Source: a virus. From it: a stretch of DNA of 64,000 bases. The stretch is taken from the IMG/VR virus record IMGVR_UViG_3300036765_000035, one strand, 5' to 3'. The notes under the pieces are model-generated. The model did no database searches, was not told the DNA's origin, and saw nothing but the letters and a program-made list of their open reading frames with translations. Of the stretch, positions 12,628 through 64,000 are shown one piece after another (position 1 is the first letter of the stretch; the number at the start of each line of letters is the position of its first letter). Both the position numbers and the translations under genes were made by a program.

Positions 12628-12854
12628 TCAAATTGGATTTCATCATTTGAACTTAGTGTAAAATTTAATTCAATTTGTCTTATTCCTACATTTGGTTTAA
12701 TTGTATATTCCAAAAAAATCTCATGTAAACCATCTTCATTCTTCTTTATATCAATTTTATTTAAACTATGTTCACAATTATTAAAATTGTATTCAAATGA
12801 TTTTATTCTTTTTTTATTTCTATGTTCTTCTAAACTATAAATATTATTTTTCAT
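12624..12854 (-). CDS. Small hypothetical protein
   Basis: 76-aa ORF, start/stop-coupled to the upstream endonuclease gene. Confidence 0.3.
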   Translation of the reverse strand: MKNNIYSLEEHRNKKRIKSFEYNFNNCEHSLNKIDIKKNEDGLHEIFLEYTIKPNVGIRQIELNFTLSSNDEIQFD

Positions 12855-49778: not shown

Positions 49779-49891
49779 AAAATTATTAAATTTAAACAAA
49801 CATATAAATAATAGAAGGTAATATATTTTTTGAATCAATTATGAAAAATACCTTATTAAAAATAAGATTATAATAACTTGGGGAATAATCA

Positions 49892-50086
49892 ATGAAATCA
49901 ATGACATTTAAGAAATTTTTAGTTGAATACACAAAACAAAAGAAAAAAATGAAAAGTGATGTGTGTAAATGTGAATTACTAGAAGACGAAGATGAAAAAA
50001 AAGAATGTTTGAAAAAATTAATGGATAAAGAAAAAAACGATGAAATAGTGGACTATATTTCTAAATCTGTTATTGCAAATAATTAA
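49892..50086 (+). CDS. Small hypothetical protein
   Basis: 64-aa ORF. A TATAAATA box lies at 49803-49810 upstream. Confidence 0.3.
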   Translation: MKSMTFKKFLVEYTKQKKKMKSDVCKCELLEDEDEKKECLKKLMDKEKNDEIVDYISKSVIANN

Positions 50087-50095
50087 GGTGAAAAA

Positions 50096-50746
50096 ATGAA
50101 CGTATTATTTAAAACAAAAATAAATGAAAAAACAAGGGAAAATATTGAAAGCGTTGGTTTAAAAATTGTTGAAGAAAATAAGGATGGATACGTTATACAA
50201 ATTTCATCTGGTAAAGACAAAATTGATTTTACAAAATATTTAACAGAAGCAAAGCAACTTGCTATGAGTAAAATTAAATCAGAATACCCCAAATTATTTG
50301 AAGATAGAAAATTAGAACTAAATGATGATATGAAACAGAATTTAGATATGTTTATTGAATCAGTTGTATCTGAAAAAGAAGAACAAAGTAATAATATTTT
50401 TAGTAAGTATGTAAATAGTAAAGTTAGTCAAATTGTACAAGAATTTATTGAAGGAAGTGCAATTAGACTTAAAGGTGATGATGTGTATATTTATGATAAA
50501 TATGTTGGCTATATAGACACTAATTTAGATGATATTGGTGGTGGGATAAGTTTTACAACAGCAGATAATACATATTCAAAAGAGTTTAACGAAATACAAG
50601 ATTTATACAAATTTTTACAACTTAGGTATAACGTAAAAGAATCTGATTCAAAAGATACAATTACAAAAACAATTGAAGAACAAATTGAAATTGCTAAAAA
50701 ATCAAAAGTAGATAATGTTGCTAGATTTGAAAAATGGTATAAGTAA
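50096..50746 (+). CDS. Hypothetical protein in the portal-protease interval (prohead core component?)
   Basis: 216-aa ORF with a consensus-like RBS (AAGGTGAAAAAATG). Confidence 0.4.
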   Translation: MNVLFKTKINEKTRENIESVGLKIVEENKDGYVIQISSGKDKIDFTKYLTEAKQLAMSKIKSEYPKLFEDRKLELNDDMKQNLDMFIESVVSEKEEQSNNIFSKYVNSKVSQIVQEFIEGSAIRLKGDDVYIYDKYVGYIDTNLDDIGGGISFTTADNTYSKEFNEIQDLYKFLQLRYNVKESDSKDTITKTIEEQIEIAKKSKVDNVARFEKWYK

Positions 50747-51063
50747 TGAAAGAAAAATTAAAAAAAGTTATTGAATGTATTAGAAACAATAATTTCGATG
50801 AAGCAAACATTGCCTTTTCTGAATATGTTGAAGAAAAGAGTTCAGAAATTTTAGCAAATAAATATATCTCTGAAAATGAAGATGCTAATGATGTTGTGGA
50901 TAAAAAAAAGAAAAAATTGAAAGATAAGAAAAATGTTGATGATACAAAAGATAAAAATTTTGTTGCAAAACATATGAGAACTTTCAATAAATCTCAAACA
51001 CACAGAGATAGAAAAAATGACTATTCTAGGAAAGAAAAACATAAAGGAAAGGGGTTTGAATAA
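50746..51063 (+). CDS. Prohead core protein gp67-like (acidic/basic low-complexity tail)
   Basis: N-terminus LKKVIECIRNNNFDEANIAFSEYVEE resembles T4 gp67 LIEAIKSNDLVAARKLFAEAM, followed by a charged tail. T4 order is 20-67-68-21. Confidence 0.4.
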   Translation: MKEKLKKVIECIRNNNFDEANIAFSEYVEEKSSEILANKYISENEDANDVVDKKKKKLKDKKNVDDTKDKNFVAKHMRTFNKSQTHRDRKNDYSRKEKHKGKGFE

Positions 51064-51686
51064 TGAGTGAAATATTAATTGAACAAGTTGTTCCATCACA
51101 AGGTGGCATTATAACAGAAAGAGTAAATAACGGTGATGTTTGGATTCAGGGAATATATATGCAAGCAGAAACCAAAAATAGAAATGGTAGAAATTATCCA
51201 TTGGCTGAAATGGTTGCTGCTGTAAACCAAGCAAATGTCGCTATAAAAGAAAATGGTGGGATATTCGGGGAGTTAGACCATCCACAAACCATAACAATTA
51301 ATATGGATAGAATATCACATGTTATAACAGAATTATACATGAATGGAAATAATGCTATAGGTAAAGCTAAATTATTAGATACACCAATGGGGTTGATTGC
51401 AAAAGAATTAGCAAAATCAGGTGTTAGATATGGTGTTTCTAGTCGTGGTGCTGGTACTGTAAATGAAGCAGGTATTGTATCAGGTTTTGGATTAGTAACA
51501 GTTGATTTAGTTGTAACACCATCTGCACAAGGTGCAATGCCAAATGTTGTATATGAATCATTAGATTTGGCAAACAATGGTAAAGAAATCATTAAATTGG
51601 CAGAATGTGTCAAACATGATAAGGAAGCACAAAAATATTTTCAAAAAGAGATTTTAAAATTTGTTAAACAATATTTATATAAATAA
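51063..51686 (+). CDS. 21: Prohead core protease (T4 gp21-like)
   Basis: GIYMQAETKNRNGRNYP / GELDHP / GVSSRGAG match T4 gp21 GIFMQAEVVNRNKRLYP / GELNHP / GVSSRGLG. Confidence 0.85.
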   Translation: MSEILIEQVVPSQGGIITERVNNGDVWIQGIYMQAETKNRNGRNYPLAEMVAAVNQANVAIKENGGIFGELDHPQTITINMDRISHVITELYMNGNNAIGKAKLLDTPMGLIAKELAKSGVRYGVSSRGAGTVNEAGIVSGFGLVTVDLVVTPSAQGAMPNVVYESLDLANNGKEIIKLAECVKHDKEAQKYFQKEILKFVKQYLYK

Positions 51687-51752
51687 TTAAATTATATGTG
51701 ACATATAGTTTTAATGAATATATAATAACAAAATATTTAAAATGTTGTTATT

Positions 51753-53618
51753 ATGGAAAAATGGAAAACACTTCAACCTACAACGTCAGATATTTCTGAC
51801 GTTTCTTTTTTAGTTAAGGAATATAAAGATAAAAAAACTTCAAATATTCGAATTAAATATCCACAAGAATATGTGAATTTAATCAATATAACAAGTTTTT
51901 TACCTAATAATGCATCCACAACAAATAGATTATGGCATATTGAACATAATGTATTAGAAACAATTAAATGTGAAAAATGTAAAATAAATGATGTTAAATG
52001 GTATCCATCAAAAGGTGGATATGGTGAATATTGTTCAGTAAAATGTTCGAGTAATTCAAATGATACAAAAAATAAAATAAAAGAAACCAATTTAAAAAAG
52101 TATGGTGAAACATCATATACAAAAACAAAAAAACATAAAAAATTTTTAAAGTCTGATGAATTTAAAAATATAATGAATTCAAGAGAAGTTATAAACAAAA
52201 GAAAGAAAACTAATCTTGATAGATATGGAGTAGAAGAAATATTCCAATCTAATGAAATACAAGAAAAAATTAAAGAAACAAATGAAACAAGATATGGTGT
52301 TGACAACCCTATTAAATCGGATGAAATAAAAGATAAAATAAAAAGAACAAATTTAGAAAAATATGGAACTGAAACTCCATTTCAAAACAGTGAAATAAGA
52401 GATAAAGCTAAAGAAACACTTTATTCAGAATATGGTGTTGAATATGGGTTGCAAGCAAAAGAAATATTAGATAAAACAAAACAAAAATATTACGAAAGAA
52501 CAGGATATTCAACCCCATTTAACAATCCAATAGTTAAAGAAAAAATCAAAGAAATTTTTAAGAAAAAATATGGTGTACACCCAACACTCAAACAGTTTTC
52601 AGATAGAACAATCCAACGAATAAATGATGCAGAATGGTTGAAAGAAAAACACCATACTGAACAAAAAACATTGACAGAAATTTCTTTAAAATATCTTGAA
52701 GGATATGATATATCATCATTGTCAAATAGAATGAAACAATTTGGAATTGAAATAAATTCAAAATTGGTTTCCTTTGCAGAAAAACAATTAAGAGAATATA
52801 TAATATCTTTAGGTATCGATATTGTAACCAATGATAGAAAAACTATATCACCAATGGAATTAGATATATACATTCCAAGTTATAATATTGCAATTGAGTA
52901 TTGTGGAATATATTGGCATTCAGAATTATATAAAGATAAAAAATATCATAAAAATAAATACGAAAAGTGTAAAACACAAGGAATCAGATTAATAACCATT
53001 TTTGAGAATGAATGGATATACAAAAAAGATATTGTAAAAAATAAAATAAAGCATATTTTAGGGAAAACAATAACAAAAATATTTGCAAGAAAATGTAAAA
53101 TACGAGAACCAAGAAAAAAGGATGTTATTGAATTTATAAACAATAATCATATACAAGGATTTAAAGCATCAACAAATTACATTTCATTATATTATGATAA
53201 CAAGATGGTTTCATGTATGTGTTTAACAAAAATAAAAGAAGGATTATACAATATCGATAGGTTTGCATCAAATACAACTGTTATAGGTGGATTTAGTAAA
53301 TTATTAAAATATTTTATAAAAAATAATTTTGATAAGATTGATAAAATTGAAACTTTTTCTGATAATAGATGGGATAATGGTAATGTTTATTTAATAAATG
53401 GATTTAAACATGATAAAGAACTAGCAGAAGATTACTCATATGTTGTTAAAGATAAAACATATCATAAATCAAATTATAGAAAAAAGAATTTAAAAAATAA
53501 ATTACATTACTATGATTCAAATTTGACAGAACATCAAAATTGTTTTAATAATAAAATATATAGAATATATGATTGTGGGAAAGTTAAATTTACTTTAGAT
53601 ATAAAAAAAGAGGAATAA
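51753..53618 (+). CDS. Free-standing homing endonuclease-like protein, a paralog of 12844..14397. N-terminal Cys cluster, six roughly 30-aa K.K.TN..KYG... repeats, then a Vsr-like PD-(D/E)xK nuclease domain.
   Basis: ELDIYIPSYNIAIEYCGIYWHSELYKDK ... GIRLITIFENEW parallels the other copy and the Vsr signature. The shared C-terminal block ends KIYRIYDCGKVKF (compare KIYDCGNMVWSY). Confidence 0.6.
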   Translation: MEKWKTLQPTTSDISDVSFLVKEYKDKKTSNIRIKYPQEYVNLINITSFLPNNASTTNRLWHIEHNVLETIKCEKCKINDVKWYPSKGGYGEYCSVKCSSNSNDTKNKIKETNLKKYGETSYTKTKKHKKFLKSDEFKNIMNSREVINKRKKTNLDRYGVEEIFQSNEIQEKIKETNETRYGVDNPIKSDEIKDKIKRTNLEKYGTETPFQNSEIRDKAKETLYSEYGVEYGLQAKEILDKTKQKYYERTGYSTPFNNPIVKEKIKEIFKKKYGVHPTLKQFSDRTIQRINDAEWLKEKHHTEQKTLTEISLKYLEGYDISSLSNRMKQFGIEINSKLVSFAEKQLREYIISLGIDIVTNDRKTISPMELDIYIPSYNIAIEYCGIYWHSELYKDKKYHKNKYEKCKTQGIRLITIFENEWIYKKDIVKNKIKHILGKTITKIFARKCKIREPRKKDVIEFINNNHIQGFKASTNYISLYYDNKMVSCMCLTKIKEGLYNIDRFASNTTVIGGFSKLLKYFIKNNFDKIDKIETFSDNRWDNGNVYLINGFKHDKELAEDYSYVVKDKTYHKSNYRKKNLKNKLHYYDSNLTEHQNCFNNKIYRIYDCGKVKFTLDIKKEE

Positions 53619-53630
53619 ATCCTCTTTTTT
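53608..53630. terminator. Bidirectional hairpin terminator (AAGAGGA-ataaa-TCCTCTT) between convergent genes
   Basis: 7-bp stem flanked by an A6 run and a T6 run. Confidence 0.55.
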
Positions 53631-53994
53631 AACTTAAACCAAGCATTGCATCATTTCTTCTTCTAGCACCATCCCTTTCTCTAGGTCCACCTTGAGTAGC
53701 TTGAACATTACGTGGTACTCTACCACGAGCCTTGAATGCCCTAGAATCTGCTGAACCATATTCCTTGGCATATTTAGCCATATTGACCCCACGTGGTGTT
53801 AATTCTTCATCAGGTGTTGCTAAACCATATGCAACTAAATCATCAAATGCATCAAGTGTACTTTCTTTTGCAACACTTAAATCTAACGCACCATCATACA
53901 TTTTTTTAAGAACAAACACATGTATTGGTAATAAGTCATTAAGTTTAACATCATCTGATTCAAATGATTCAAATAAAACGTTTTTTATTTTCAT
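53629..53994 (-). CDS. Small protein with locally elevated GC and atypical codon usage, with an Arg/Gly-rich C-terminal tail. Possible recent horizontal acquisition; function unknown.
   Basis: 121-aa ORF whose DNA (ccacgtggtgt..., gccctagaatctgctgaacc...) is visibly more GC-rich than its surroundings. C-terminus ARGRVPRNVQATQGGPRERDGARRRN. Confidence 0.4.
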   Translation of the reverse strand: MKIKNVLFESFESDDVKLNDLLPIHVFVLKKMYDGALDLSVAKESTLDAFDDLVAYGLATPDEELTPRGVNMAKYAKEYGSADSRAFKARGRVPRNVQATQGGPRERDGARRRNDAMLGLS

Positions 53995-54087
53995 TTTTTT
54001 CTCCGATTTTTTAAAAACATGTTTAATAGTATTTATGATAATTGATTAAATAAGATGATATTTTTATTTAAATTTATTAAAAAAATG

Positions 54088-54116
54088 TTGACAATATATA
54101 AATATTATAATAATAT
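54088..54116 (+). promoter_or_regulatory. Sigma70-like promoter (TTGACA, about 17 nt, TAATAT) upstream of tRNA-Trp
   Basis: TTGACAatatataaatattataaTAATAT, 16 nt before the tRNA 5' end. Confidence 0.45.
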
Positions 54117-54132
54117 TTCCAATTATTAATTA

Positions 54133-54206
54133 AGGTGAGTGGTGTAATGGTAGCACAGCGTTCTCCAAAAGCGTTAATGGGGGTTCGATTCCTCTCTCAC
54201 CTGCCA
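54133..54206 (+). tRNA. tRNA-Trp (anticodon CCA), with encoded 3' CCA
   Basis: Hand-folded cloverleaf. Acceptor AGGTGAG/CTCACCT 7 bp, U8, D-stem GTGT/GCAC, anticodon stem GCGTT/AGCGT with wobbles, loop CTCCAAA, T-arm GGGGG-TTCGATT-CCTCT, discriminator G, CCA. Confidence 0.75.
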
Positions 54207-54221
54207 AAACAAAAACATTTC

Positions 54222-54875
54222 ATGAAAAAAATCAAACCAGAAAATTTTAAAATAGGTGATATATTCATTCAAGAGACAGATGGTATAACATTATATCGTT
54301 TAATACTTAATAAAAAACATGATAATAATATAGATTTTTTTATCTTTGATGATATTTTTGGATTTAACAATATTTCATTAGATTCAAATAAAGAATATGC
54401 TGTAATTTCAAATAAAACAAAAGTTAACAAAATAAAAGAAAAATATAGAAAAAGATTATTAGATAATTATAAACATTGTTTACAGTGTATATCATTATTT
54501 AATAAGCATAAACATTTATTAGATAATGGTACACAAAAAATCAAAAAATTTAAAGAATTAGAAACTGGTGATTTGTTTGACTCTGGATTTGTTTTGAATG
54601 TAGAGAAAGAAATGTTTCTTGGATATAGAGTTGAATTTTTATATAATAATGAATCATTATATCATATGATAGGTGAATTACAAACATGTTCAATAATCTC
54701 ATCAAAAGAATTATTTGATGATTGTGATGATTCTGATGATGAAACTGAATACAATATTTTTAATGGAAACATTGAAAAAGTAAAAGAATTTAAGGAGTTA
54801 ATGGTAAAGGTTATTGAACTTACTCATAATAATTATACAACATTATATAATTTAACAGAAATAGAAACAGAATAA
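54222..54875 (+). CDS. Hypothetical protein. Start moved to the first ATG downstream of tRNA-Trp.
   Basis: In-frame Met (MKKIKPENFKIGD...) at 54222. The upstream part of the annotated ORF overlaps the tRNA. Confidence 0.4.
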   Translation: MKKIKPENFKIGDIFIQETDGITLYRLILNKKHDNNIDFFIFDDIFGFNNISLDSNKEYAVISNKTKVNKIKEKYRKRLLDNYKHCLQCISLFNKHKHLLDNGTQKIKKFKELETGDLFDSGFVLNVEKEMFLGYRVEFLYNNESLYHMIGELQTCSIISSKELFDDCDDSDDETEYNIFNGNIEKVKEFKELMVKVIELTHNNYTTLYNLTEIETE

Positions 54876-54876
54876 A

Positions 54877-55425
54877 ATGTATTATGCAGGTATAGGCTCT
54901 AGAAAAATACCAAAAGTTATAAAAGATTTAATGGTAGTCATTGGATATGCAATGGCAGAAAACGGTTACGTCTTACGTTCTGGTGGTGCAGAAGGTGCAG
55001 ATACAGCATTTCAAAAAGGTTGTCAACAATGGTGTGATGACAACAATGTGCCATATTGTAAAAGACAAGAAATATATTTACCTTGGAATAATTTTAACAA
55101 TTTAAAAGTTGATAAGCATAAAGGAATAACAACAGAAACATTTTGGTTAGCACATGATTTGGTTTATGAAACTCACCCTAATGCAAAAAATTTATCACCA
55201 TCAGTAATGAAATTAATGGTAAGAAATGTTGCACAAATTTATGGCTTAAACAATACCCCATCTGATTTGATAATATGCTGGACACCTGATGGTGCAACAA
55301 AAACAACCACAAATGAAACAGGTGGAACAGGACAAGCATTAAGATTGGCATTAATAGATAACATTCCAATAATAAATTTAAAATTAAAAAAACACATAAA
55401 ATTGATTGAAAAAATATTAATATAA
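54877..55425 (+). CDS. DprA/Smf-like Rossmann-fold (SLOG superfamily) protein
   Basis: GIGSRKIPKVIKDLMVVIGYAMAENGYVLRSGGAEGADTAFQKG follows the DprA pattern (GSR......A..LA..G..VVSGLA.GID.AAH.GA). Confidence 0.45.
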   Translation: MYYAGIGSRKIPKVIKDLMVVIGYAMAENGYVLRSGGAEGADTAFQKGCQQWCDDNNVPYCKRQEIYLPWNNFNNLKVDKHKGITTETFWLAHDLVYETHPNAKNLSPSVMKLMVRNVAQIYGLNNTPSDLIICWTPDGATKTTTNETGGTGQALRLALIDNIPIINLKLKKHIKLIEKILI

Positions 55426-55433
55426 ATTAAAAC

Positions 55434-55462
55434 TTGTAAAAAAATTTTTTAAATGATATAAT
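55434..55462 (+). promoter_or_regulatory. Sigma70-like promoter (TTGTAA, 17 nt, TATAAT) upstream of the SPFH gene
   Basis: TTGTAAaaaaattttttaaatgaTATAAT, then the RBS AGGAG, then ATG at 55495. Confidence 0.5.
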
Positions 55463-55494
55463 TTTCTAACTTATTAATACTTAGGAGTAAAAAA

Positions 55495-56217
55495 ATGAAT
55501 CATTTAATTGGTATGGGAATATTTTTATTTATATATGCAGTTGCATATATTTTGTTTTTAAAAAATCATAGACAATATAATATAATTGCATTGCCATTAG
55601 TAATGGCATTAATTGTGTCATTGGGTTTTAGTGGAGCAACATTCTATGCAGAACCCGGTTTTATATATCATGTACGAACAATTACAGGAACTGAAAAAGT
55701 AATCAGTGATGTAGGGTATAATTTCCATTGGTTTGGGAGATATAACTCATGGAAAAGAGCGATGACTGTACAATCAACAGACATTGGAAATAATAATGAT
55801 ACTGATAAATTGACAGCAGAAAATACTGATTCAACTGTATTGTCAGCCATGTTACGTCCACAAAAAATAGTATTTCTTGACCAAGTTGATGCATTGATTC
55901 AATCATCTGTTAGGTTCAAAATTCCTTCAGAAGAAGAAGCTTTTTTAAGATTGGTACATGAATACAGAACACCAGATAATCTATTAAGGGCAACTTTAAT
56001 TCCAGCATTTAGAGAAACATTACAGGCAACAGCATCTTTAATGACAGCAGAAGAATATTATTCTGGTGGAAGAACAGAGTTTAGTAATGAATTTGAAACA
56101 CAGATGAATGATGGAATTTATATTGTTAAAAGGATTGAAAAAATCGAAAAAAATGTTGTAACATCAACAAGTTCCGCAAATGCATCGAAGGGTTGTAACT
56201 GTTTCATATTAATATGA
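55495..56217 (+). pseudogene. 5' portion of an SPFH/band-7 (stomatin/flotillin/HflK-like) membrane-protein gene, interrupted by the IS607-like element. The last ~10-15 codons read into the insertion.
   Basis: N-terminal TM helices, then band-7 core blocks (VRFKIPSEEEAFLRLVHEYRTPDNLLRATLIPAFRETLQATASLMTAEEYYSGGR ... GIYIVKRIEKIE). The ORF ends a few codons after GIxV..V.I.xI, where SPFH proteins normally continue. Confidence 0.5.
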
Positions 56218-56267
56218 TAAATTTTATAGAAAATTATATTTAATTTGCAATTTATATAAATACAAGT

Positions 56268-56867
56268 ATGAATAAATTAATATCTTTACAAAAAACAAGT
56301 GAAATATTGTGTCTTTCTAAATGGGGAGTCCGAAGAACACCAGAATCAATATTGCCAGTTTATCGAACAGCAGGAGGACACAGAAGATATAAACTTCAAG
56401 ATGTACAAAAATTAATAGGAGAAGAAACTAAACTAATAAGTGATGACAATAATGTTGCCATTTATAGTAGAGTTTCTTCTCATGAACAAAAGAAATCAGG
56501 TGATTTATCACGTCAAAAAGACAGATTAATCAATTATTGCATTAATAAACAATATACAATTGTATCCAACCTCGAAGAGGTTGGTTCTGGTATGAATGAT
56601 AAAAGACCAAAACTGGTTAAATTAATTGATTTGGCATGTAAAGGTGAAATAAATAAAATAATAATTGAACACCGAGACAGATTAACCCGTTTTAATTTTA
56701 ATATTTTTAAATTATTTATGAAACACCATAATGTTACTATTGAGGTTATTAAAGAATCAGAAAAAATATCTTTTGAAGAAGAATTAGTATCAGATATAAT
56801 TTCATTGATGACATCATTTTCTGGAAAAATTCATGGGAAGAGAAGCCATAAAAATGTTAATAAATAA
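56268..56867 (+). CDS. tnpA: IS607-type transposase TnpA: MerR-like HTH fused to a serine recombinase (resolvase) catalytic domain
   Basis: HTH region SEILCLSKWGVRRTPE ... YRTAGGHRRY. Catalytic-serine motif AIYSRVSSHEQK. 199 aa, overlapping tnpB by 35 nt. Confidence 0.75.
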   Translation: MNKLISLQKTSEILCLSKWGVRRTPESILPVYRTAGGHRRYKLQDVQKLIGEETKLISDDNNVAIYSRVSSHEQKKSGDLSRQKDRLINYCINKQYTIVSNLEEVGSGMNDKRPKLVKLIDLACKGEINKIIIEHRDRLTRFNFNIFKLFMKHHNVTIEVIKESEKISFEEELVSDIISLMTSFSGKIHGKRSHKNVNK

Positions 56868-58074
56868 AACATACAAAACAGAAATCAAACCAAATAATAA
56901 ACAGAAAACATTTCTTATGCAAAGTTGTGGTGTTTCGAGATTGGCTTATAATTGGGGATTGGATTTAATAAAAAATGATTATGAGCAAGGAGAAAAATAC
57001 AAAGGAGCGATTGGACTTCATAAAGCACTCTGTGCTATTAAAAAAGCACAATTTCCGTTTATGTATGATGTTAGTAAACAAGCACCCCAAAATTCACTCC
57101 GTGACTTAGATAAAGCAATGAAAAATTTTTGGAGAGGAATAAAAAATAAAAAACATATAGGGTTTCCTAAATTTAAATCAAAAAAATATTCCAAAAATTC
57201 ATTTCGTATTGATGGAGCAAATATTGATGTCACTGATAATTTTGTTAAATTACCAAAAATTGAAAAAATAAGACTGAAAGAAAGAAATTATATTCCAACT
57301 GAAAACATAAAAGTGCTGAATTGTACAATATCAAAAGAAATAAACCGATGGTTTATTTCTGTGTCAGTACAAGAAGAAATATTTAATGATAATATTCCAG
57401 AAGAAATTATTGGAATTGATTTAGGAATCAAAGATTTGGCTACTTGCTCCAATGGATTGATATTTAATAATCCAAAATATACAAATAAGTATGCTAAACA
57501 ACTAAAGTTTGCTCAACGAGAACTTAGTAGAAAAATAAAAGGTTCTAAAAACCGAGATAAACAACGCATTAAAGTTGCTAAAATACATAAGAAAATTAGA
57601 AATTCCCGAAAAGACACAATTAATAAAATGACCTCTAATATCACGAAAACCAAGTGCAGAATTATTGGAATTGAAAATCTGTGTGTATCAGGAATGACTA
57701 AGAACCATAAATTAGCAAAGGCAGTCACAGATGCCAGTTTTTTTGAAATAAGACGACAACTAGAATATAAAAGTGAATGGAATGGTGGCAGAATTTGTTT
57801 AGTTGACAGGTTTTTCCCTTCTTCCAAAACTTGTAGTTGTTGTGGATTAATCAAAGAAATGCCATTAAATGAACGGGTTTATTCATGCGATTGTGGATTT
57901 GTGATGGACAGAGACCTTAATGCGTCTATTAATTTAGAAACATATACCGCAAGTTCTGCGGAATTTAATGCTTATGGAGAGAACATAAGACTCGCTTCTA
58001 GTGAACTAGAAAAAAGCAATCTCTGTGAAGTAAGAAATAAACTTGAATTTGAATATATTGCTCAAATTCTGTAA
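56833..58074 (+). CDS. tnpB: TnpB (OrfB_IS605 / Cas12 ancestor, RNA-guided endonuclease family), apparently intact
   Basis: RuvC-I IGIDLGIKDLATCS (D), RuvC-II IIGIENLCVSG (E), zinc finger CSCCG...CDCG, RuvC-III DRDLNASINL (D). 413 aa. Confidence 0.85.
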   Translation: MGREAIKMLINKTYKTEIKPNNKQKTFLMQSCGVSRLAYNWGLDLIKNDYEQGEKYKGAIGLHKALCAIKKAQFPFMYDVSKQAPQNSLRDLDKAMKNFWRGIKNKKHIGFPKFKSKKYSKNSFRIDGANIDVTDNFVKLPKIEKIRLKERNYIPTENIKVLNCTISKEINRWFISVSVQEEIFNDNIPEEIIGIDLGIKDLATCSNGLIFNNPKYTNKYAKQLKFAQRELSRKIKGSKNRDKQRIKVAKIHKKIRNSRKDTINKMTSNITKTKCRIIGIENLCVSGMTKNHKLAKAVTDASFFEIRRQLEYKSEWNGGRICLVDRFFPSSKTCSCCGLIKEMPLNERVYSCDCGFVMDRDLNASINLETYTASSAEFNAYGENIRLASSELEKSNLCEVRNKLEFEYIAQIL

Positions 58075-58579
58075 GTTTTATAGAACGGAAGAACAAGAAC
58101 TATTAGCAAATGCAAAAGGAAAAAGACAAGTTGCTGAAAGACAGGCACAAGCAAAAGTTGAACAAATTGAACGTACAACTAAAGCAGAAACCGAAAAACA
58201 ATTAGCAATTACAGAAGCTTTAAAAATTAAAGAAAAAGCAACAATTGAACAAGAAGCAGCTAAGATTCAACTAGAAAGAGACAAACTAGTTGCTCAATCC
58301 CAAAAAGTTCTTGCAGATGCTGAAGCGTATAAAAGAAATGCAATTATTAAATCAGATAATGCGTTACAACAAAAACTTGAAGCTGAAATAAAAATTCAAA
58401 AGGTTTGGGCAGATGCATTTGCTCAACGTAAAGTTCCTCAAACAATGTTTATAACAGGAAGTTCAGGTGAATCAGGTCATGTTGGTTCAAACAATGAGTT
58501 GCAAAATATGATGCAAATGATGACACTTCAAATGGCAAAAAATCTTGATAACGATAGAAAAGTTGTAAAAGATAAGTAA
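58043..58579 (+). pseudogene. 3' portion of the same SPFH/band-7 gene (C-terminal coiled-coil/flotillin-like region), downstream of the IS607-like element. The frame opens at 58034 inside the end of tnpB.
   Basis: AKGKRQVAERQAQAKVEQIERTTKAETEKQLAITEALKIKEKATIEQEAAKIQLERDKL is a band-7 C-terminal helical repeat. The ORF has no ATG and begins within the IS. Confidence 0.5.
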
Positions 58580-58630
58580 CATTATAAAAAAACAGATATA
58601 AATAATATGATATTAAACAATAATGGATAA

Positions 58631-58876
58631 ATGATGGACAGTGATTATATATTTTCTATTAAAATAGTATTTGTTGATAATACAGAATTGGAAATTGAAA
58701 TTTCACGTAGAGCAAGTACTTATCAAATTGCAACTACAAAGATAAAAATGGAAATAGAAAAAATGGCAATGGAAGGATTTTATGAAAACTATAAAGACGG
58801 TAATATCTATACATTTCATTCCCCTTTTTCAATAAAAACAATTGAGGTAATAAAATGTTATGAAAAAAAATATTAA
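58631..58876 (+). CDS. Small hypothetical early protein
   Basis: 81-aa ORF in a same-strand array of small genes. Confidence 0.35.
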   Translation: MMDSDYIFSIKIVFVDNTELEIEISRRASTYQIATTKIKMEIEKMAMEGFYENYKDGNIYTFHSPFSIKTIEVIKCYEKKY

Positions 58877-59234
58877 TTTCACAATTGAAGAAATAGAATC
58901 AAAAAAGAAAGAAATTTTTAAAAGTCCAAAATATTGGTTATATAGAAATAAAATAAAACTGTTTAATACTGTTGAAAATATTGCAACTCTTGGATTTTTT
59001 TATGGGGTTGCAGTAACATTTTCACTCAATCATATGAATTTAATTGTTCTGGCAAATATTATAAAAGATGAATTAGATTTAATTGACGATAAAAATGATT
59101 GTCATAGAGAGTATAATATTTTAGTAAAAAACATTTTATCAAAATCGTTTTTGATGATAGATGAAGAAAATAATTTATATAATATTGAAAAACTGTTAAC
59201 AATATTATTGACATTAGAGAAAATAAACAAATGA
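58860..59234 (+). CDS. Small hypothetical early protein
   Basis: 124-aa ORF. Confidence 0.35.
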   Translation: MKKNINFTIEEIESKKKEIFKSPKYWLYRNKIKLFNTVENIATLGFFYGVAVTFSLNHMNLIVLANIIKDELDLIDDKNDCHREYNILVKNILSKSFLMIDEENNLYNIEKLLTILLTLEKINK

Positions 59235-61014: not shown

Positions 61015-61089
61015 GAACCAGTCGTCCAACGGTTAAGACGCTAGACTTTCAATCTGGTAATGGGGGTTCGATTCCCCTCTGGTTCTCCA
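61015..61089 (+). tRNA. tRNA-Glu (anticodon UUC), CCA encoded
   Basis: Acceptor GAACCAG/CTGGTTC, D-stem CGTC/GACG, anticodon stem CTAGA/TCTGG, loop CTTTCAA, T-arm GGGGG-TTCGATT-CCCCT. Confidence 0.65.
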
Positions 61090-61154
61090 ATCTTTTATTT
61101 TTTAATATTAAAAGATTCATAAATAAAATATTATGAAACTTGAAAATATATTAT

Positions 61155-61229
61155 GTGGGTTGTAGCTTAATGGCAAAGCAGAAGTTTGTGGCACTTCTGA
61201 TACGAGTTCGATTCTCGTCAATCCACCCA
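61155..61229 (+). tRNA. tRNA-His (anticodon GUG) with encoded G-1 and CCA
   Basis: G-1 opposite discriminator C. Acceptor TGGGTTG/CAATCCA, D-arm GCTT-AATGGCA-AAGC, anticodon arm GAAGT-TTGTGGC-ACTTC, T-arm ACGAG-TTCGATT-CTCGT. Confidence 0.8.
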
Positions 61230-61333
61230 ATATAAAAATGGTTGTTGAAATATACTAGCATGGTGGTAGCTAACCACCACATTAAATAATTAAAAAGCGT
61301 TCGACTTGGAGAAGTCAGAAAAACAATCATTTT

Positions 61334-61407
61334 GGGGATATCGTCTAATGGGAGGATAAAACTGTTGCATAGTTTAGATTTCGGTTCGAATCCGAATATC
61401 TCCACCA
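61334..61407 (+). tRNA. tRNA-Ala (anticodon UGC), CCA encoded
   Basis: Acceptor GGGGATA/TATCTCC, anticodon arm AAACT-GTTGCAT-AGTTT, T-arm TTCGG-TTCGAAT-CCGAA. Confidence 0.75.
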
Positions 61408-61413
61408 ATTTTT

Positions 61414-61491
61414 CTCTGTGTAGCTTTAATCTGGTAGAGCACTCGTTTTGGGAACGAGGGGTTAGAGGTTCGAATCCTCTCACGGAGACCA
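61414..61491 (+). tRNA. tRNA-Pro (anticodon UGG), CCA encoded
   Basis: Acceptor CTCTGTG/CACGGAG, anticodon arm CTCGT-TTTGGGA-ACGAG, T-arm AGAGG-TTCGAAT-CCTCT. Confidence 0.75.
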
Positions 61492-61636
61492 AACATAAAA
61501 AAATGAAAGAGTAAAAATAAATAGAGTAAAGATATATATTTCACATAAGTGCATTCCCTATTAAGATGTTAATAGAACGAAGGTTGTAAAAGGTCAATTA
61601 AATGTATATCGGTGAGACATCACTACTCTATTTTTT

Positions 61637-61727
61637 GGATGTGCGGTGACGATGGTGGTGTCACGGCAGACTGTAAATCTGTCCCCTCTGGGTAACATTG
61701 TAGGTTCGAATCCTACCGCATCCACCA
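61637..61727 (+). tRNA. tRNA-Tyr (anticodon GUA), type II with a long variable arm, CCA encoded
   Basis: Acceptor GGATGTG/CGCATCC, anticodon arm GCAGA-CTGTAAA-TCTGT, long variable region, T-arm TAGG-TTCGAAT-CCTA. The D-arm region is slightly irregular. Confidence 0.6.
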
Positions 61728-61821
61728 ATTTTTAAACCTCATTTAACAATAGGAAAAATGGTTTGAATAAATATATAAATACACATATAAATAAATATTT
61801 ATAACCATTAGAGGAATTATT

Positions 61822-62460
61822 ATGAGTCACAAAGAATTGTTGCATAAAATTATTGAAAATATTATTGAAGGTAGAACTGAAGATAATGATAGGTTGTTTT
61901 CAGAATACTTAACTAAAAAATCTAAAGATGTATTATTGGAGAAACATGAAGTTATAGTAAAAGAAGAATGGTCACCATCTGATATACGTTCCTTCATTCA
62001 GGGTATTTCTGATAAAACATTATATAATGCAGAGATAACAAATACATATGATGAAATTTTAAATATGATGCACCGTTATGGTGTTATTGATTTGAATCAC
62101 GATGATTATAAGCAAGTAATTAAGTACATTAAAAAGTTCAGCAAAGAAAAGGATTTTGATAAATTATATCAAAAATTTAGAGAAGAAGATGGTGCATATG
62201 ACAAAAAAAATCTATATGCATATTTAGATACTTTATCTTCAGATAAAGTCTTTAATCTTGGAAATAAAGAAAATATGATGAACCATGCAACGATTAAATA
62301 TTTGTTTGATAAAGAAATAATTAACTTTAATGCTAGAATCAATAATGAAGACAATATCGACTTATTAAAAAGTGCTATTAGAGATTATTGGAAAAATACA
62401 CATGACCAAGAATATATTAAACAAAAAGAATTGATTAAACGTAATTATGGAATTGAATAA
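61822..62460 (+). CDS. Hypothetical protein encoded inside the tRNA cluster, flanked by a repeated tRNA 3'-end motif
   Basis: 212-aa ORF with a consensus-like RBS (AGAGGAattattATG). Confidence 0.45.
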   Translation: MSHKELLHKIIENIIEGRTEDNDRLFSEYLTKKSKDVLLEKHEVIVKEEWSPSDIRSFIQGISDKTLYNAEITNTYDEILNMMHRYGVIDLNHDDYKQVIKYIKKFSKEKDFDKLYQKFREEDGAYDKKNLYAYLDTLSSDKVFNLGNKENMMNHATIKYLFDKEIINFNARINNEDNIDLLKSAIRDYWKNTHDQEYIKQKELIKRNYGIE

Positions 62461-62488
62461 TAACATTAAAGAAGGGTAATATTGAGAT

Positions 62489-62502
62489 ATCCACCAATTT
62501 TT
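62489..62502 (+). repeat. Orphan copy of the tRNA 3'-end motif ATCCACCAATTTTT (also at 61721-61734 after tRNA-Tyr; CCACCAATTTTT also follows tRNA-Ala at 61403-61414)
   Basis: 14-nt direct repeat bracketing the 61822..62460 gene. No tRNA body precedes this copy. Confidence 0.6.
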
Positions 62503-62513
62503 TATAAAAAAGG

Positions 62514-62541
62514 TTGACAGTTTAAATTAAATCATTATAAT
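62514..62541 (+). promoter_or_regulatory. Consensus sigma70 promoter (TTGACA, 16 nt, TATAAT) upstream of the second tRNA group
   Basis: aggTTGACAgtttaaattaaatcatTATAATataaaa. Confidence 0.6.
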
Positions 62542-62571
62542 ATAAAAAACATTATAATTATGTTGGGTGTG

Positions 62572-62649
62572 GGATAAAGTTGGAGCGTTACAACTGAATA
62601 TAAATCAGTTCCCGTTAATGGAAAGTAGGTTAGAATCCTACCTCATCCT
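62572..62649 (+). tRNA. tRNA-like element, probably a degenerate/pseudo-tRNA. Acceptor has mismatches, T-loop TTAGAAT lacks C56, anticodon loop ATATAAA, long variable region.
   Basis: T-arm GTAGG-TTAGAAT-CCTAC and anticodon arm ACTGA-ATATAAA-TCAGT fold well. The acceptor GGATAAA vs CTCATCC pairs at only 5 of 7 positions. Confidence 0.3.
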
Positions 62650-62706
62650 CTTAATTATATTAAGAAATTAAACAATTTAATATTATGTACTATAAAATAT
62701 TAATAA

Positions 62707-62781
62707 TGGCAATTAGCTCAGTGTTAGAGCACCACTCATCGGGAGTGGAGGTCAGAGGTTAAATTCCTCTATTGCCAACCA
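62707..62781 (+). tRNA. tRNA, probably Arg (anticodon UCG). The anticodon loop is non-canonical (A at position 33) and the T-loop is TTAAATT.
   Basis: Acceptor TGGCAAT/ATTGCCA perfect, D-arm GCTC-AGTGTTA-GAGC, anticodon arm CCACT-CATCGGG-AGTGG, T-arm AGAGG-TTAAATT-CCTCT, CCA encoded. Confidence 0.5.
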
Positions 62782-62804
62782 GATTTTGTAAATAAAAATA
62801 TAAT

Positions 62805-62880
62805 GGGTCTGTAGTTTAATTGGAAAAACACAATACTTTTAATATTGAAGCTTTCCGTTCAAGTCGGAACAGACCCACCA
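62805..62880 (+). tRNA. tRNA-Lys (anticodon UUU), CCA encoded
   Basis: Acceptor GGGTCTG/CAGACCC perfect, D-arm GTTT-AATTGGAA-AAAC, anticodon arm CAATA-CTTTTAA-TATTG, T-arm TTCCG-TTCAAGT-CGGAA. Confidence 0.8.
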
Positions 62881-62901
62881 AATTAAAAAAAAAATATCAT
62901 A

Positions 62902-63540
62902 ATGTACTATTTAATATATAAAACTACAAATATAATTAATGGAAAAATTTATATAGGTGCACATAAAACAAATAATATTGATGATGGTTATATTGGTTCT
63001 GGAATTAAATTGAATGAAGATATTATTAAATATGGCAAGAATTCTTTTAAAACGGAAATATTGGAATATTTAACAAATTCTGAAGAAATGTATCAAAGAG
63101 AAAAAGAAATAGTGAATGAAGATTTTATCATTAGAGTTGATACATATAACATGATAGTTGGTGGAAGCGGTGGTTGGGAATATGTTAATGATATTTTAGA
63201 TACAGAACACTATAGTCATTCTGGTAAATTAGGAAACAAAGCACTCCAAGAACGTAGGAAAGATAAAGAATGGAATGAAAAATATATCGATAAACTAAGA
63301 GTTGCAAATAAGAAAAAATTTAAAGGAATAAAAAATAGTGAAACAAGTTTTTTAGGAAAAAAACATACTGTTGAAACTAAGAAAAAAATAAGTAACGCAA
63401 ATAAAGGAAATGGTAAAGGTGAGAATAATTCACAATATGGAACAATGTGGATTAATGATGGAATTGTTAGTAAAAAGATAAAAAAAGATGATGAAATACC
63501 TGAAGGGTTTAAAAAAGGTAGAAAAATGAAAAATAAATAA
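62902..63540 (+). CDS. GIY-YIG homing endonuclease with NUMOD3 DNA-binding repeats (Seg-like), located inside the tRNA cluster
   Basis: N-terminus YYLIYKTTNIINGKIYIGAHKT (GIY...YIG). ...R..Y and N motifs follow. C-terminal NUMOD3-like GKKHTVETKKKISNANKG. Confidence 0.8.
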   Translation: MYYLIYKTTNIINGKIYIGAHKTNNIDDGYIGSGIKLNEDIIKYGKNSFKTEILEYLTNSEEMYQREKEIVNEDFIIRVDTYNMIVGGSGGWEYVNDILDTEHYSHSGKLGNKALQERRKDKEWNEKYIDKLRVANKKKFKGIKNSETSFLGKKHTVETKKKISNANKGNGKGENNSQYGTMWINDGIVSKKIKKDDEIPEGFKKGRKMKNK

Positions 63541-63541
63541 T

Positions 63542-63616
63542 GTACTCTTAGCTCAGTTGGTAGAGCATCTCACTGAAGATGAGATGTCCTCGGTTCGAAT
63601 CCGAGAGAGTACACCA
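63542..63616 (+). tRNA. tRNA-Phe (anticodon GAA), CCA encoded
   Basis: Acceptor GTACTCT/AGAGTAC, D-arm GCTC-AGTTGGTA-GAGC, anticodon arm TCTCA-CTGAAGA-TGAGA, T-arm CTCGG-TTCGAAT-CCGAG. Confidence 0.85.
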
Positions 63617-63621
63617 AATAT

Positions 63622-63695
63622 GACTCTATAGTTCAACGGTAGAACGGCTGTCTGTTAAACAGCGAATGAAAGTTCGATTCTTTCTGGAGTCTCCA
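63622..63695 (+). tRNA. tRNA-Asn (anticodon GUU), CCA encoded
   Basis: Acceptor GACTCTA/TGGAGTC, D-arm GTTC-AACGGTA-GAAC, anticodon arm GCTGT-CTGTTAA-ACAGC, T-arm GAAAG-TTCGATT-CTTTC. Confidence 0.8.
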
Positions 63696-63700
63696 AAAAA

Positions 63701-63843
63701 TAAAATAGTGAAATGTTGTGTGATTGTGGAGGTAGGGTTACCCCACGTAAATAACAGAAATACCCAAACAGATGAGTTATGGCAGTAAGAGTGCTCCATG
63801 TAAATAACAAAAATCTCTAAACAGAAATGACATTTCACTATTT
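63701..63843. repeat. 143-bp element bounded by a perfect 14-bp inverted repeat (AAAATAGTGAAATG / CATTTCACTATTTT) and containing two roughly 30-bp direct repeats (CCAyGTAAATAACArAAAT.C..AAACAGA)
   Basis: Inverted and direct repeats read directly from the sequence, immediately 3' of tRNA-Asn. Confidence 0.6.
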
Positions 63844-64000
63844 TATTAATGAAATTGAAATATGAGAAAATGAAATACAATGGTATTTAATTAATACCTA
63901 TATTATATAGAAAAATAACGAATAAATCAAGAATTATTTCTTTTTTCCTTTTAACATAAATATTATAATGATAAAATCAGAACGACACATAATAAAAAGA

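What the first reader, a model, noticed from the sequence alone, without database searches (positions are those of the whole stretch)
55495..58579. Phage-encoded SPFH/band-7 (flotillin/HflK-like) gene split into two fragments by the IS insertion
ORF 55495..56217 has N-terminal TM segments and the SPFH core, ending near the GI.V..V.I..I block. ORF 58043..58579 has no ATG, starts inside the IS right end and encodes the typical C-terminal Ala/Glu/Lys/Gln-rich helical region. Together they would give a band-7 protein of about 390 aa, so the IS interrupts a pre-existing phage gene. SPFH proteins are unusual phage cargo; they act in membrane microdomain or protease regulation and occur in some defence and anti-defence contexts. 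The insertion point gives near-single-nucleotide resolution of the IS boundaries.
Basis: partly seen in the sequence, partly recalled or inferred. Interest (0 to 1): 0.7.

Follow-up and report, generated by a model that had tools for sequence, protein, structure and literature searches.

The report
IS607 element disrupting a phage SPFH gene
A small mobile element (IS607 family: serine transposase plus RNA-guided nuclease TnpB) sits inside a membrane-scaffold (SPFH/band-7) accessory gene of an uncultured low-GC jumbo phage, and 78 conserved codons are missing at the site, so the gene is a recently killed, non-restorable remnant rather than a cleanly split gene.

Summary
The two ORFs are real and are complementary pieces of one SPFH-family gene (phrog_11908). 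The N piece covers profile positions 19-194 and the C piece 272-429. Between them lies a complete IS607-family element: TnpA, and a TnpB that keeps its nuclease and zinc-finger motifs.

The gene is not simply split. Against the closest intact ortholog (P0001, 475 aa, 77-81% identical, syntenic, in a related phage), residues 234-311 are missing from the whole window. That segment holds 27 family-invariant positions, two core beta-strands including the GIxV block, and the start of the coiled coil. Intact relatives are 447-475 aa, not about 390 aa. Removing the IS the way TnpA would (1896 nt, 56193-58088) leaves a frameshift.

A second, 100% identical IS copy in another context (a Mom-like gene remnant) fixes the ends: AGGG | TTGTAAC ... 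AACGG | AA. This matches the published IS607 target/TAM logic. The surviving pieces keep 124 of 125 invariant residues, so inactivation is recent.

SPFH genes and IS607/TnpB elements are both already known in phages. This is an ordinary, well-resolved case of IS-mediated loss of an accessory gene. No public short-read contig spans the IS, so the deletion rests on the window's assembly.

The parts
55495..56193 (+). SPFH gene, 5' fragment: codons 1-233 (two N-terminal TM segments plus most of the SPFH domain). The ORF runs on for 7 IS-encoded codons (CNCFILI) to the stop at 56215-56217.
   Evidence: tblastn of P0001 residues 1-233, 77% identity. Pfam Band_7 E 7e-7. phrog_11908 positions 19-194. 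Hydropathy.
56189..56192 (+). AGGG target / TAM-like motif abutting the IS left end. The GG core is at 56191-56192.
   Evidence: The same four bases precede the IS in the second copy, L010. Analogous to the TGGG target/TAM of the IS607-family CboIStron (PMC10690162).
56193..58088 (+). IS607-family insertion sequence, 1896 bp. No terminal inverted repeats, no target-site duplication, ends in ...AACGG. Boundary uncertainty is 56189-56194 on the left and 58087-58090 on the right.
   Evidence: 1902 nt (56189-58090) are 100% identical to L010 3771-5672 in a different context. The 1902-nt unitig L021 equals this repeat. Homology to the ortholog stops at 56193 and resumes at 58088. No inverted 7-mers or longer are shared between the ends.
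56222..56231 (+). Subterminal 10-mer TTTTATAGAA in the left end. It is repeated directly in the right end at 58076-58085 and is a candidate TnpA-binding motif.
   Evidence: k-mer comparison of LE and RE. The binding role is inferred.
56268..56867 (+). tnpA, IS607-family serine transposase (199 aa).
   Evidence: NCBIfam NF033518 transpos_IS607, 178 bits against a cutoff of 110. Pfam Resolvase E 2e-20.
56833..58074 (+). tnpB, RNA-guided endonuclease (413 aa). RuvC-type motifs GIDLG / IGIENL / DRDLNA and the CxxC...CxC zinc-finger cysteines are present.
   Evidence: NCBIfam guided_TnpB, 294 bits against a cutoff of 100. Pfam OrfB_IS605, Cas12f1-like_TNB and HTH_OrfB_IS605. PDB ISDra2 TnpB 8bf8, E 1e-57. 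The catalytic roles of the motifs are inferred from established TnpB knowledge.
57900..58088 (+). Right end and presumed omega-RNA scaffold region (overlaps the 3' end of tnpB, ends ACGG).
   Evidence: Inferred by analogy with IS607 TnpB systems. No Rfam family matched. The fold z-score is only -1.5.
58089..58108 (+). Flank that would serve as the omega-RNA guide / target sequence (AAGAACAAGAACTATTAGCA).
   Evidence: Inferred from position next to the RE, using the IS607 architecture in PMC10690162. Not tested.
58088..58579 (+). SPFH gene, 3' fragment: equivalent to codons 312-475 of the ortholog (coiled-coil helices and C-terminal helix) plus the stop. The mechanical ORF begins at TTG 58043 inside tnpB. 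JGI's gene caller used TTG 58058.
   Evidence: tblastn of P0001 residues 312-472, 81% identity. phrog_11908 positions 272-429. L009 gene call 1870-2391.

Best explanation
The window comes from an uncultured, low-GC (about 27%) jumbo myovirus with a T4-type portal. One of its accessory genes encodes a membrane-anchored SPFH (band-7) scaffold protein of the phrog_11908 family. Its closest relatives are chromosomal SPFH proteins of marine Gammaproteobacteria.

An autonomous IS607-family element (serine transposase TnpA plus RNA-guided nuclease TnpB) integrated in this gene at an AGGG motif, using a GG core. The 78 codons that followed the insertion point are gone. The gene is therefore inactivated.

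At most, the phage can make a 240-aa truncated membrane protein: 233 native residues plus 7 IS-encoded ones. That product lacks two core beta-strands of the SPFH domain and the whole coiled-coil region that SPFH proteins use to assemble into rings or cages. The 3' remnant of 163 codons has no ATG.

**Shown:** the identity of both fragments, the missing segment, the IS family, the IS boundaries, the second identical IS copy, and the frameshift on precise excision.

**Inferred:**
- The event is recent. The IS copies are 100% identical and the fragments keep 124 of 125 invariant residues.
- The deletion was IS-mediated. Either TnpA recombined the right-end GG with a downstream GG, or two nearby IS copies recombined with each other.
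- TnpB with an omega-RNA from the right end helps retain or spread the IS by cutting empty sites during co-infection.
For: - **Complementary fragments of one family:**
- **Intact syntenic ortholog:** P0001/L004, with the same flanking DprA-like and Zn-ribbon genes and an upstream S77 protease and portal.
- **Missing segment:** residues 234-311 are absent from all six frames of the window. This segment holds 27 of 152 family-invariant columns. In the AF2 model it contains strands 243-251 and 272-283 plus the start of helix 285-349.
- **Fold:** matches HflK/C, prohibitin, erlin, flotillin, stomatin and QmcA.
- **IS607 TnpA and TnpB:**
- **Second identical IS copy and shared AGGG / ACGG-AA ends:**
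- **Published target logic:** GG core, TGGG TAM and a scaffold ending UCGG in an IS607-family element (PMC10690162).
- **Frameshift on removing 56193-58088:**
- **Population data:** the N-fragment protein is identical on 6 contigs, and the places shown come from three samples. No intact allele above about 77-81% identity was found among 5.8 billion clusters.
- **Against a tandem IS:** JGI contig L009 runs unbroken from the first IS base through the right end into the C fragment.
Against: - No public short-read contig spans the whole IS in the SPFH context. Left contigs stop at the left end and right contigs start in the IS. The N-IS-C linkage therefore rests on the window's own assembly.
- The search for the missing middle segment was insensitive. 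It did not even return P0001, so the segment's absence from the source population is not proven.
- No omega-RNA family was detected and the right-end fold is not significant.
- The mechanism of the deletion is untested.
- The high conservation of the fragments could also reflect continuing selection rather than recency.
Confidence: 0.85

Rival explanations
1. Clean split: the IS simply inserted into an intact gene of about 390 aa. Removing it restores a full band-7 protein.
For: The fragments are complementary and do not overlap in the profile. The IS has canonical junctions.
Against: 78 residues that are conserved in every relative are missing, including the 77-81% identical ortholog. All intact relatives are 447-475 aa. 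TnpA-type excision leaves a frameshift.
Confidence: 0.03
2. Assembly artefact: the real genome has two IS copies in tandem orientation flanking the 'missing' 236 nt (N-IS-mid-IS-C), or the window is a chimeric join across the IS repeat. In that case the deletion is not real.
For: The IS is a repeat with at least two contexts. Short-read assemblies break at it. The search for the middle segment was insensitive.
Against: L009 passes from the IS through the right end into the C fragment without a branch. The repeat unitig L021 starts exactly at AGGG. A middle-to-LE context ending in the expected Glu codon (GAG-G) would not allow that. Two same-orientation insertions 236 nt apart are unlikely. The flanks on both sides are the expected syntenic neighbours.
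Confidence: 0.05
3. Functional two-piece gene: the N and C fragments are both expressed and assemble. This would resemble the HEG-split nrdA of Aeromonas phage Aeh1, which I recall from memory and did not check. Alternatively, the truncated N fragment alone has a new role, for example interfering with the host's homologous SPFH.
For: Both fragments keep open frames and 124 of 125 invariant residues. The interrupted allele is found in several samples. The C ORF overlaps the tnpB stop, so translational coupling is conceivable.
Against: Two core beta-strands and 27 invariant positions are lost. The C fragment has no ATG and no evident ribosome-binding site. The 100% identical IS copies argue that there has simply been no time for decay.
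Confidence: 0.05
4. The 78-codon deletion pre-dated the IS and was independent of it. The IS later landed by chance exactly at the deletion joint.
For: The L010 copy sits in a Mom-like remnant that has also lost its N-terminus. Decaying genes therefore exist in these regions independently of the IS.
Against: It requires the IS to hit the exact joint. A frameshifted, deleted gene would not be expected to keep 124 of 125 invariant residues for long.
Confidence: 0.05

Closest known systems
phrog_11908 phage SPFH proteins (e.g. Sinorhizobium phage phiN3 gp385 'membrane protease subunit stomatin/prohibitin', Pseudomonas phage Astolliot UOL48670, Alishewanella phage Slickus01 WGH49761) and chromosomal 'SPFH domain-containing proteins' of marine Gammaproteobacteria (Marinobacterium, Alcanivorax, Oceanobacter)
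   Same: Same family and architecture: N-terminal membrane anchor, SPFH domain, long Ala/Glu/Lys/Gln-rich coiled coil and a conserved VPQ..F..GG C-terminal region. In the MAFFT alignment, ortholog P0001 is 53-58% identical to the bacterial members and 35-36% to the other phage members. tblastn of the window fragments against the phage members gave 31-48%.
   Different: The window copy is interrupted by an IS and lacks residues 234-311. The intact members are 447-475 aa. Function is unknown in all of them. The two bacterial genomic contexts examined showed no NfeD partner and no shared operon structure.
HflK/HflC, prohibitin, stomatin, flotillin, erlin, QmcA (structurally characterised SPFH cage/ring proteins)
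   Same: The predicted fold of the intact ortholog matches them: SPFH alpha/beta domain followed by long helices (Foldseek E 4e-10 to 1e-5). A membrane-anchored oligomeric scaffold is the expected mode of action.
   Different: Only 10-16% identity. No NCBIfam hit to any model at E<=0.01 (NCBIfam's HflK/HflC models, as I recall them, would be covered) and no sequence hit in the PDB. No evidence of an FtsH or NfeD partnership.
IS607-family elements with TnpB, e.g. the Clostridium botulinum CboIStron / IS607 of Helicobacter, and IS607-like elements already annotated in phages (Microcystis phage Ma-LMM01, Nodularia phages, Staphylococcus Kayvirus, Clostridium phage c-st, Helicobacter phages)
   Same: Serine TnpA plus TnpB in the same order. 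No TIRs and no TSD. GG core at both junctions. An NGGG motif at the left flank and an NCGG end at the right, as published for CboIStron (TGGG / UCGG). TnpA homologs occur in 66 phage records and TnpB homologs in 427.
   Different: TnpA is at most about 40% and TnpB at most 46% identical to any phage record. The left-flank motif is AGGG rather than TGGG. No group I intron. The element is associated here with loss of 234-236 nt of flanking target DNA.

Membership tests
SPFH / Band 7 superfamily (Pfam PF01145) | Significant match to the Band_7 profile above the gathering score | tested here: met
   N fragment 29.9 bits against a cutoff of 23.6. Intact ortholog P0001 39.1 bits.
SPFH / Band 7 superfamily (Pfam PF01145) | SPFH alpha/beta fold followed by long coiled-coil helices | tested here: met
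   Tested on the ortholog, not on the window copy. AF2 model pLDDT 72.9. Foldseek top hits are HflK/C, prohibitin, erlin, flotillin and stomatin.
SPFH / Band 7 superfamily (Pfam PF01145) | N-terminal membrane anchor | tested here: met
   Two hydrophobic 19-residue windows with KD > 1.6, at about residues 4-22 and 30-48. Helices 2-21 and 26-45 in the ortholog model.
SPFH / Band 7 superfamily (Pfam PF01145) | Complete, uninterrupted domain in this window (a functional member) | tested here: not met
   Residues 234-311 are absent, including the GIxV strand and 27 invariant positions. The window copy is a gene remnant.
HflK/HflC (FtsH-modulating SPFH pair) | Match to the HflK/HflC equivalog models, and a paired second SPFH gene | tested here: not met
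   No NCBIfam hit at E<=0.01 for P0001 or either fragment. Only one SPFH gene was found in the window.
SPFH-NfeD operon (QmcA-YbbJ / YqiK-YqiJ type) | Adjacent NfeD-family partner gene | tested here: not met
   Window neighbours are DprA-like and unknown small proteins. No NfeD in L004 or in the bacterial contexts L014-L018.
Flotillin | Flotillin-specific sequence signature beyond the generic SPFH fold | tested here: not met
   Pfam returns only Band_7. Flotillin is just one of many SPFH structural hits, with TM about 0.28-0.33.
Known anti-phage defence systems (PADLOC) | Match to a defence-system protein model | tested here: not met
   No hit for P0001 or either fragment.
IS607 family insertion sequence | Serine-recombinase TnpA with N-terminal HTH, matching the IS607 transposase equivalog | tested here: met
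   NF033518, 178 bits against a cutoff of 110.
IS607 family insertion sequence | No terminal inverted repeats and no target-site duplication; GG core dinucleotide at both junctions | tested here: met
   No inverted 7-mers or longer between the ends. Junctions are AGGG|TTGT and AACGG|AA in two independent contexts. Criteria taken from PMC6188088 and PMC10690162.
IS607 family insertion sequence | Mobility: identical copies in different sequence contexts | tested here: met
   1902 nt are 100% identical in the window (SPFH context) and in L010/L011 (Mom-like context).
TnpB / OMEGA RNA-guided nuclease | TnpB family protein with an intact RuvC triad and zinc finger | tested here: met
   guided_TnpB, 294 bits against a cutoff of 100. 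The alignment to a solved TnpB-like nuclease shows the GIDLG, IENL and DRDLNA motifs and the cysteine pairs conserved. Residue roles are inferred from the literature.
TnpB / OMEGA RNA-guided nuclease | Omega-RNA encoded at the right end, with a guide reading into the flank | tested here: inconclusive
   No Rfam match, including RAGATH-18-type RNAs, at E<=1. The right-end fold has z = -1.5. No relatives were aligned for covariation.
IStron (IS607 plus group I intron that splices to restore the host gene) | Group I intron at the left end | tested here: not met
   No intron family in 55000-59000. The left end is only 75 nt long before tnpA. The missing codons exclude restoration by splicing.

The most novel reading that the evidence does not exclude
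An IS607/TnpB element is actively circulating among co-infecting low-GC jumbo phages. It would behave like an RNA-guided homing element: TAM AGGG, with the guide taken from the right flank. It would repeatedly destroy accessory genes (SPFH here, a Mom-like gene in L010) together with loss of DNA adjacent to its right end. That would be IS-driven gene erosion in lytic phage genomes, with a previously undescribed TnpA-mediated adjacent-deletion activity.
Probability: 0.2. Interest if true: 0.5.

Novelty: new member of a known kind. Interest (0 to 1): 0.25.

Why it matters
The value is mainly in annotation. The two ORFs should be recorded as one IS-disrupted pseudogene carrying a 78-codon internal deletion. 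They should not be recorded as two genes or as a restorable split.

It shows that this phage SPFH accessory gene can be lost in nature. The interrupted allele was recovered from several samples, and no intact close allele was found.

It gives a cleanly delimited, apparently recently active IS607/TnpB element in a jumbo phage, with a predicted TAM (AGGG) and two natural guide/flank pairs. That could be used to test TnpB homing during phage co-infection.

None of the components is new. SPFH genes and IS607/TnpB elements have both been reported in phages before.

Tried and rejected
- **Missing 78 residues elsewhere in the window:** tblastn with word size 2 and E up to 100 found nothing.
- **Second IS copy in the window:** none found.
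- **Close DNA relatives among cultured phages:** none by megablast.
- **Exact IS end sequences:** absent from IMG/VR and from the JGI metagenome collection. That collection evidently does not hold the source samples.
- **TnpB relatives in reference genomes, to identify a host:** only a 39% Lachnobacterium hit, which is uninformative.
- **P0001 relatives in viral contigs:** a single 38% locus.
- **Rfam for an omega-RNA or group I intron:** nothing, so an IStron is rejected.
- **Promoter and terminator scans:** at background level.
- **Protein search with the middle segment:** returned only 2 unrelated fragments and missed P0001 itself. It is treated as uninformative.
- **Exact-protein look-ups of the C fragment:** not on record.
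- **NCBIfam, PADLOC and PDB-by-sequence for SPFH subfamily assignment:** no hits.
- **Bacterial gene neighbourhoods:** no conserved partner in the two contexts examined.
- **The L010 Mom-like remnant as proof of recurrent right-side deletion:** considered, but that gene has also lost its N-terminus, so the case is ambiguous.
Full report
**What is in the sequence.**

Mechanical ORF listing confirms a 240-aa ATG ORF at 55495-56217 and a 178-aa TTG ORF at 58043-58579. Two overlapping genes lie between them, at 56268-56867 and 56833-58074.

- The first ORF has two hydrophobic N-terminal segments. It matches Pfam Band_7 above the gathering score (29.9 vs 23.6 bits).
- The second ORF has no Pfam hit.
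- Both ORFs hit the same PHROG family. The N ORF covers phrog_11908 profile positions 19-194 and the C ORF covers 272-429 of 430.
- Both ORFs also hit the same single annotated genes in phages phiN3, Astolliot/Milchi and Slicko/Slickus.

They are therefore complementary, non-overlapping parts of one gene family.

**The gene is not simply split.**

- Intact relatives are 447-475 aa.
- The closest one, P0001 (475 aa), lies on a 57-kb contig (L004). It sits at the same relative place as in the window: downstream of a T4-type portal, an S77 prohead protease and a DprA-like gene, and upstream of a Zn-ribbon gene.
- tblastn places P0001 residues 1-233 on 55495-56193 (77% identity) and residues 312-472 on 58088-58564 (81%).
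- Residues 234-311 have no counterpart anywhere in the 64-kb window. The multiple alignment shows the same gap.
- In a 37-member family alignment, 27 of 152 invariant columns fall in the missing piece. The two surviving pieces keep 124 of the 125 invariant residues they cover.
- An AlphaFold model of P0001 (pLDDT 72.9) places the SPFH domain at about 49-283, followed by long helices at 285-349 and 354-424.
It also removes the first part of the coiled coil.
- Foldseek against the PDB returns only SPFH cage and ring proteins: HflK/C, prohibitin, erlin, flotillin, stomatin and QmcA, at 10-16% identity.
- There is no sequence-level membership in any characterised subfamily. NCBIfam, PADLOC and PDB-by-sequence are all negative.

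**The interrupting element.**

- TnpA passes the NCBIfam IS607-transposase equivalog (178 vs 110 bits).
- TnpB passes the guided_TnpB model.
- TnpB aligns end to end with solved TnpB structures (ISDra2 TnpB, E 1e-57). Its RuvC-type motifs and zinc-finger cysteines are conserved.
- Exact-protein look-ups found the same TnpA and TnpB in a second context. In contigs L010 and L011 the element sits in a Mom-like gene remnant.
- The two contexts share exactly 1902 nt at 100% identity, window 56189-58090.
- The junctions are AGGG|TTGTAAC... and ...AACGG|AA.
- A 1902-nt Logan unitig (L021) equals this repeat.

Combined with the ortholog comparison, the ends are fixed to within 56189-56194 and 58087-58090.

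The pattern matches experimentally defined IS607-family behaviour. That behaviour is a strict GG core, a TGGG target/TAM on the left, and an omega-RNA scaffold ending UCGG on the right (PMC10690162). It also includes no TIRs and no TSD (PMC6188088). No inverted k-mers link the two ends, and a direct 10-mer TTTTATAGAA occurs in both.

With the IS defined as 56193-58088 (1896 nt), precise excision gives GG|AAGAAC and a frameshift. About 236 nt of target have therefore been lost and the gene cannot be restored.

No group I intron or known omega-RNA family is detectable. The element is not an IStron, and the omega-RNA is inferred only.

**How it probably arose and works.**

- *Recency.* The identical IS copies, the undecayed fragments and the identical N-fragment protein on six contigs point to a recent event.
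- *Cause of the deletion.* It is most simply IS-mediated. One route is recombination between the right-end GG and a downstream GG. The other is recombination between two nearby IS copies. These are inferences.
- *The Mom-like remnant.* The second IS copy also lacks the target gene's downstream 53 codons. That remnant has lost its N-terminus too, so it is not clean support.
- *Consequence.* The result is a null or severely truncated SPFH allele. SPFH proteins need the coiled coil to oligomerise; this is established from the HflK/C, flotillin and prohibitin structures found.
- *TnpB.* It probably acts as in other IS605/IS607 elements, cutting empty TAM-plus-guide sites to promote retention and homing. 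That could be effective in co-infected cells. This is untested.

**Caveats.**

- Public short-read contigs break at the IS. Left contigs end 30 or 127 nt into it, and right contigs start at or inside it. The N-IS-C linkage therefore relies on the window's own assembly.
- A collapsed tandem IS-middle-IS is unlikely. L009 runs through the right end into the C fragment without a branch, and the repeat unitig begins at AGGG. It is still not formally excluded.
- My search for the middle segment was insensitive.

**Context and novelty.**

- The portal is closest (47-52%) to those of jumbo phages XacN1, Xoo-sp13 and the Stenotrophomonas jumbo phages.
- The window also has a 3454-aa ORF, ten tRNAs and several homing-endonuclease-like genes.
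- In the MAFFT alignment P0001 is 53-58% identical to chromosomal homologs of marine Gammaproteobacteria. It is only 35-36% identical to other phage members. This suggests acquisition from a host-like source.
- The two bacterial contexts examined showed no shared operon structure and no NfeD partner.
- SPFH genes were listed in T4-like phages in 2006 (PMC1524935). Erwinia jumbo-phage papers that mention SPFH also turned up in a full-text search, though I did not read those passages.
- Among 50,697 phage records, IS607-type TnpA homologs occur in 66 and TnpB homologs in 427.

This is therefore a new, well-resolved instance of known kinds of things, with low to moderate interest.

Noticed in passing
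L010:3453-5672 (JGI 3300036764 contig Ga0376080_0010363): A second, 100% identical copy of the IS interrupts a Mom-like DNA-modification gene. Only residues 33-139 of the 192-aa Vibrio phage homolog remain, so both the N-terminal 32 and the C-terminal 53 residues are missing. Its left flank is again AGGG and its right flank again starts with AA.
   Followed up: partly
window 51753-53618 (+) and 12844-14397 (-): The 621-aa ORF between the prohead protease gene and the accessory region is homing-endonuclease-like (DUF7487, phrog_3339 / phrog_559). Its 3' part is 72-73% identical at the DNA level to part of a 517-aa minus-strand ORF that carries ROS_MUCR and NUMOD3 motifs. These look like paralogous mobile endonuclease genes.
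   Followed up: partly
window 54133-54206 and 61015-63695: Ten tRNA genes: Trp, then a cluster of Glu, His, Ala, Pro, Tyr, Arg, Lys, Phe and Asn. The cluster is interspersed with two 212-aa ORFs (61822-62460 and 62902-63540), the second of which has a NUMOD3 motif. These may be endonuclease genes inside a tRNA cluster. ORF 54135-54875 begins inside tRNA-Trp, so its upstream GTG start is probably spurious.
   Followed up: partly
window 17503-27867 (-): Giant 3454-aa ORF with internal 12-nt-periodic repeats (18274-18525) and only a sub-threshold Pfam hit. It is probably a structural or fibre protein of this jumbo phage.
   Followed up: no
L004:5881-16468 (Logan SRR29889419 contig, ortholog phage): The related phage carries unusual membrane and periplasm cargo around its intact SPFH gene: a GluR0-like protein (SBP_bac_3 + Ion_trans), an NMT1_3 binding protein, DUF2491 (which I recall from memory as YjfK-like), and a trypsin-PDZ protease that looks HtrA/DegP-like. 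This hints at a membrane-stress or envelope-remodelling gene set that the window phage lacks.
   Followed up: no
window 48081-55425: After the T4-type portal (48081-49778) and the S77 prohead protease (51063-51686), the expected scaffold and major capsid genes do not follow. Instead there is a plastic accessory region holding the HEG, tRNA-Trp, a DprA-like gene (phrog_768, 54877-55425), the SPFH remnant, the IS and the tRNA cluster. The closest cultured portals are those of jumbo phages XacN1 and Xoo-sp13 (about 52%).
   Followed up: partly
window ~64000 / L009, L022, L023 right ends; L010:7232-7384: All public contigs to the right of the IS are only 5.9-7.8 kb long. L009 matches the window right up to position 64000, and L010's tail is 90% identical to window 63841-64000. 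This suggests another repeat or a strain-variable breakpoint just beyond the window end.
   Followed up: no
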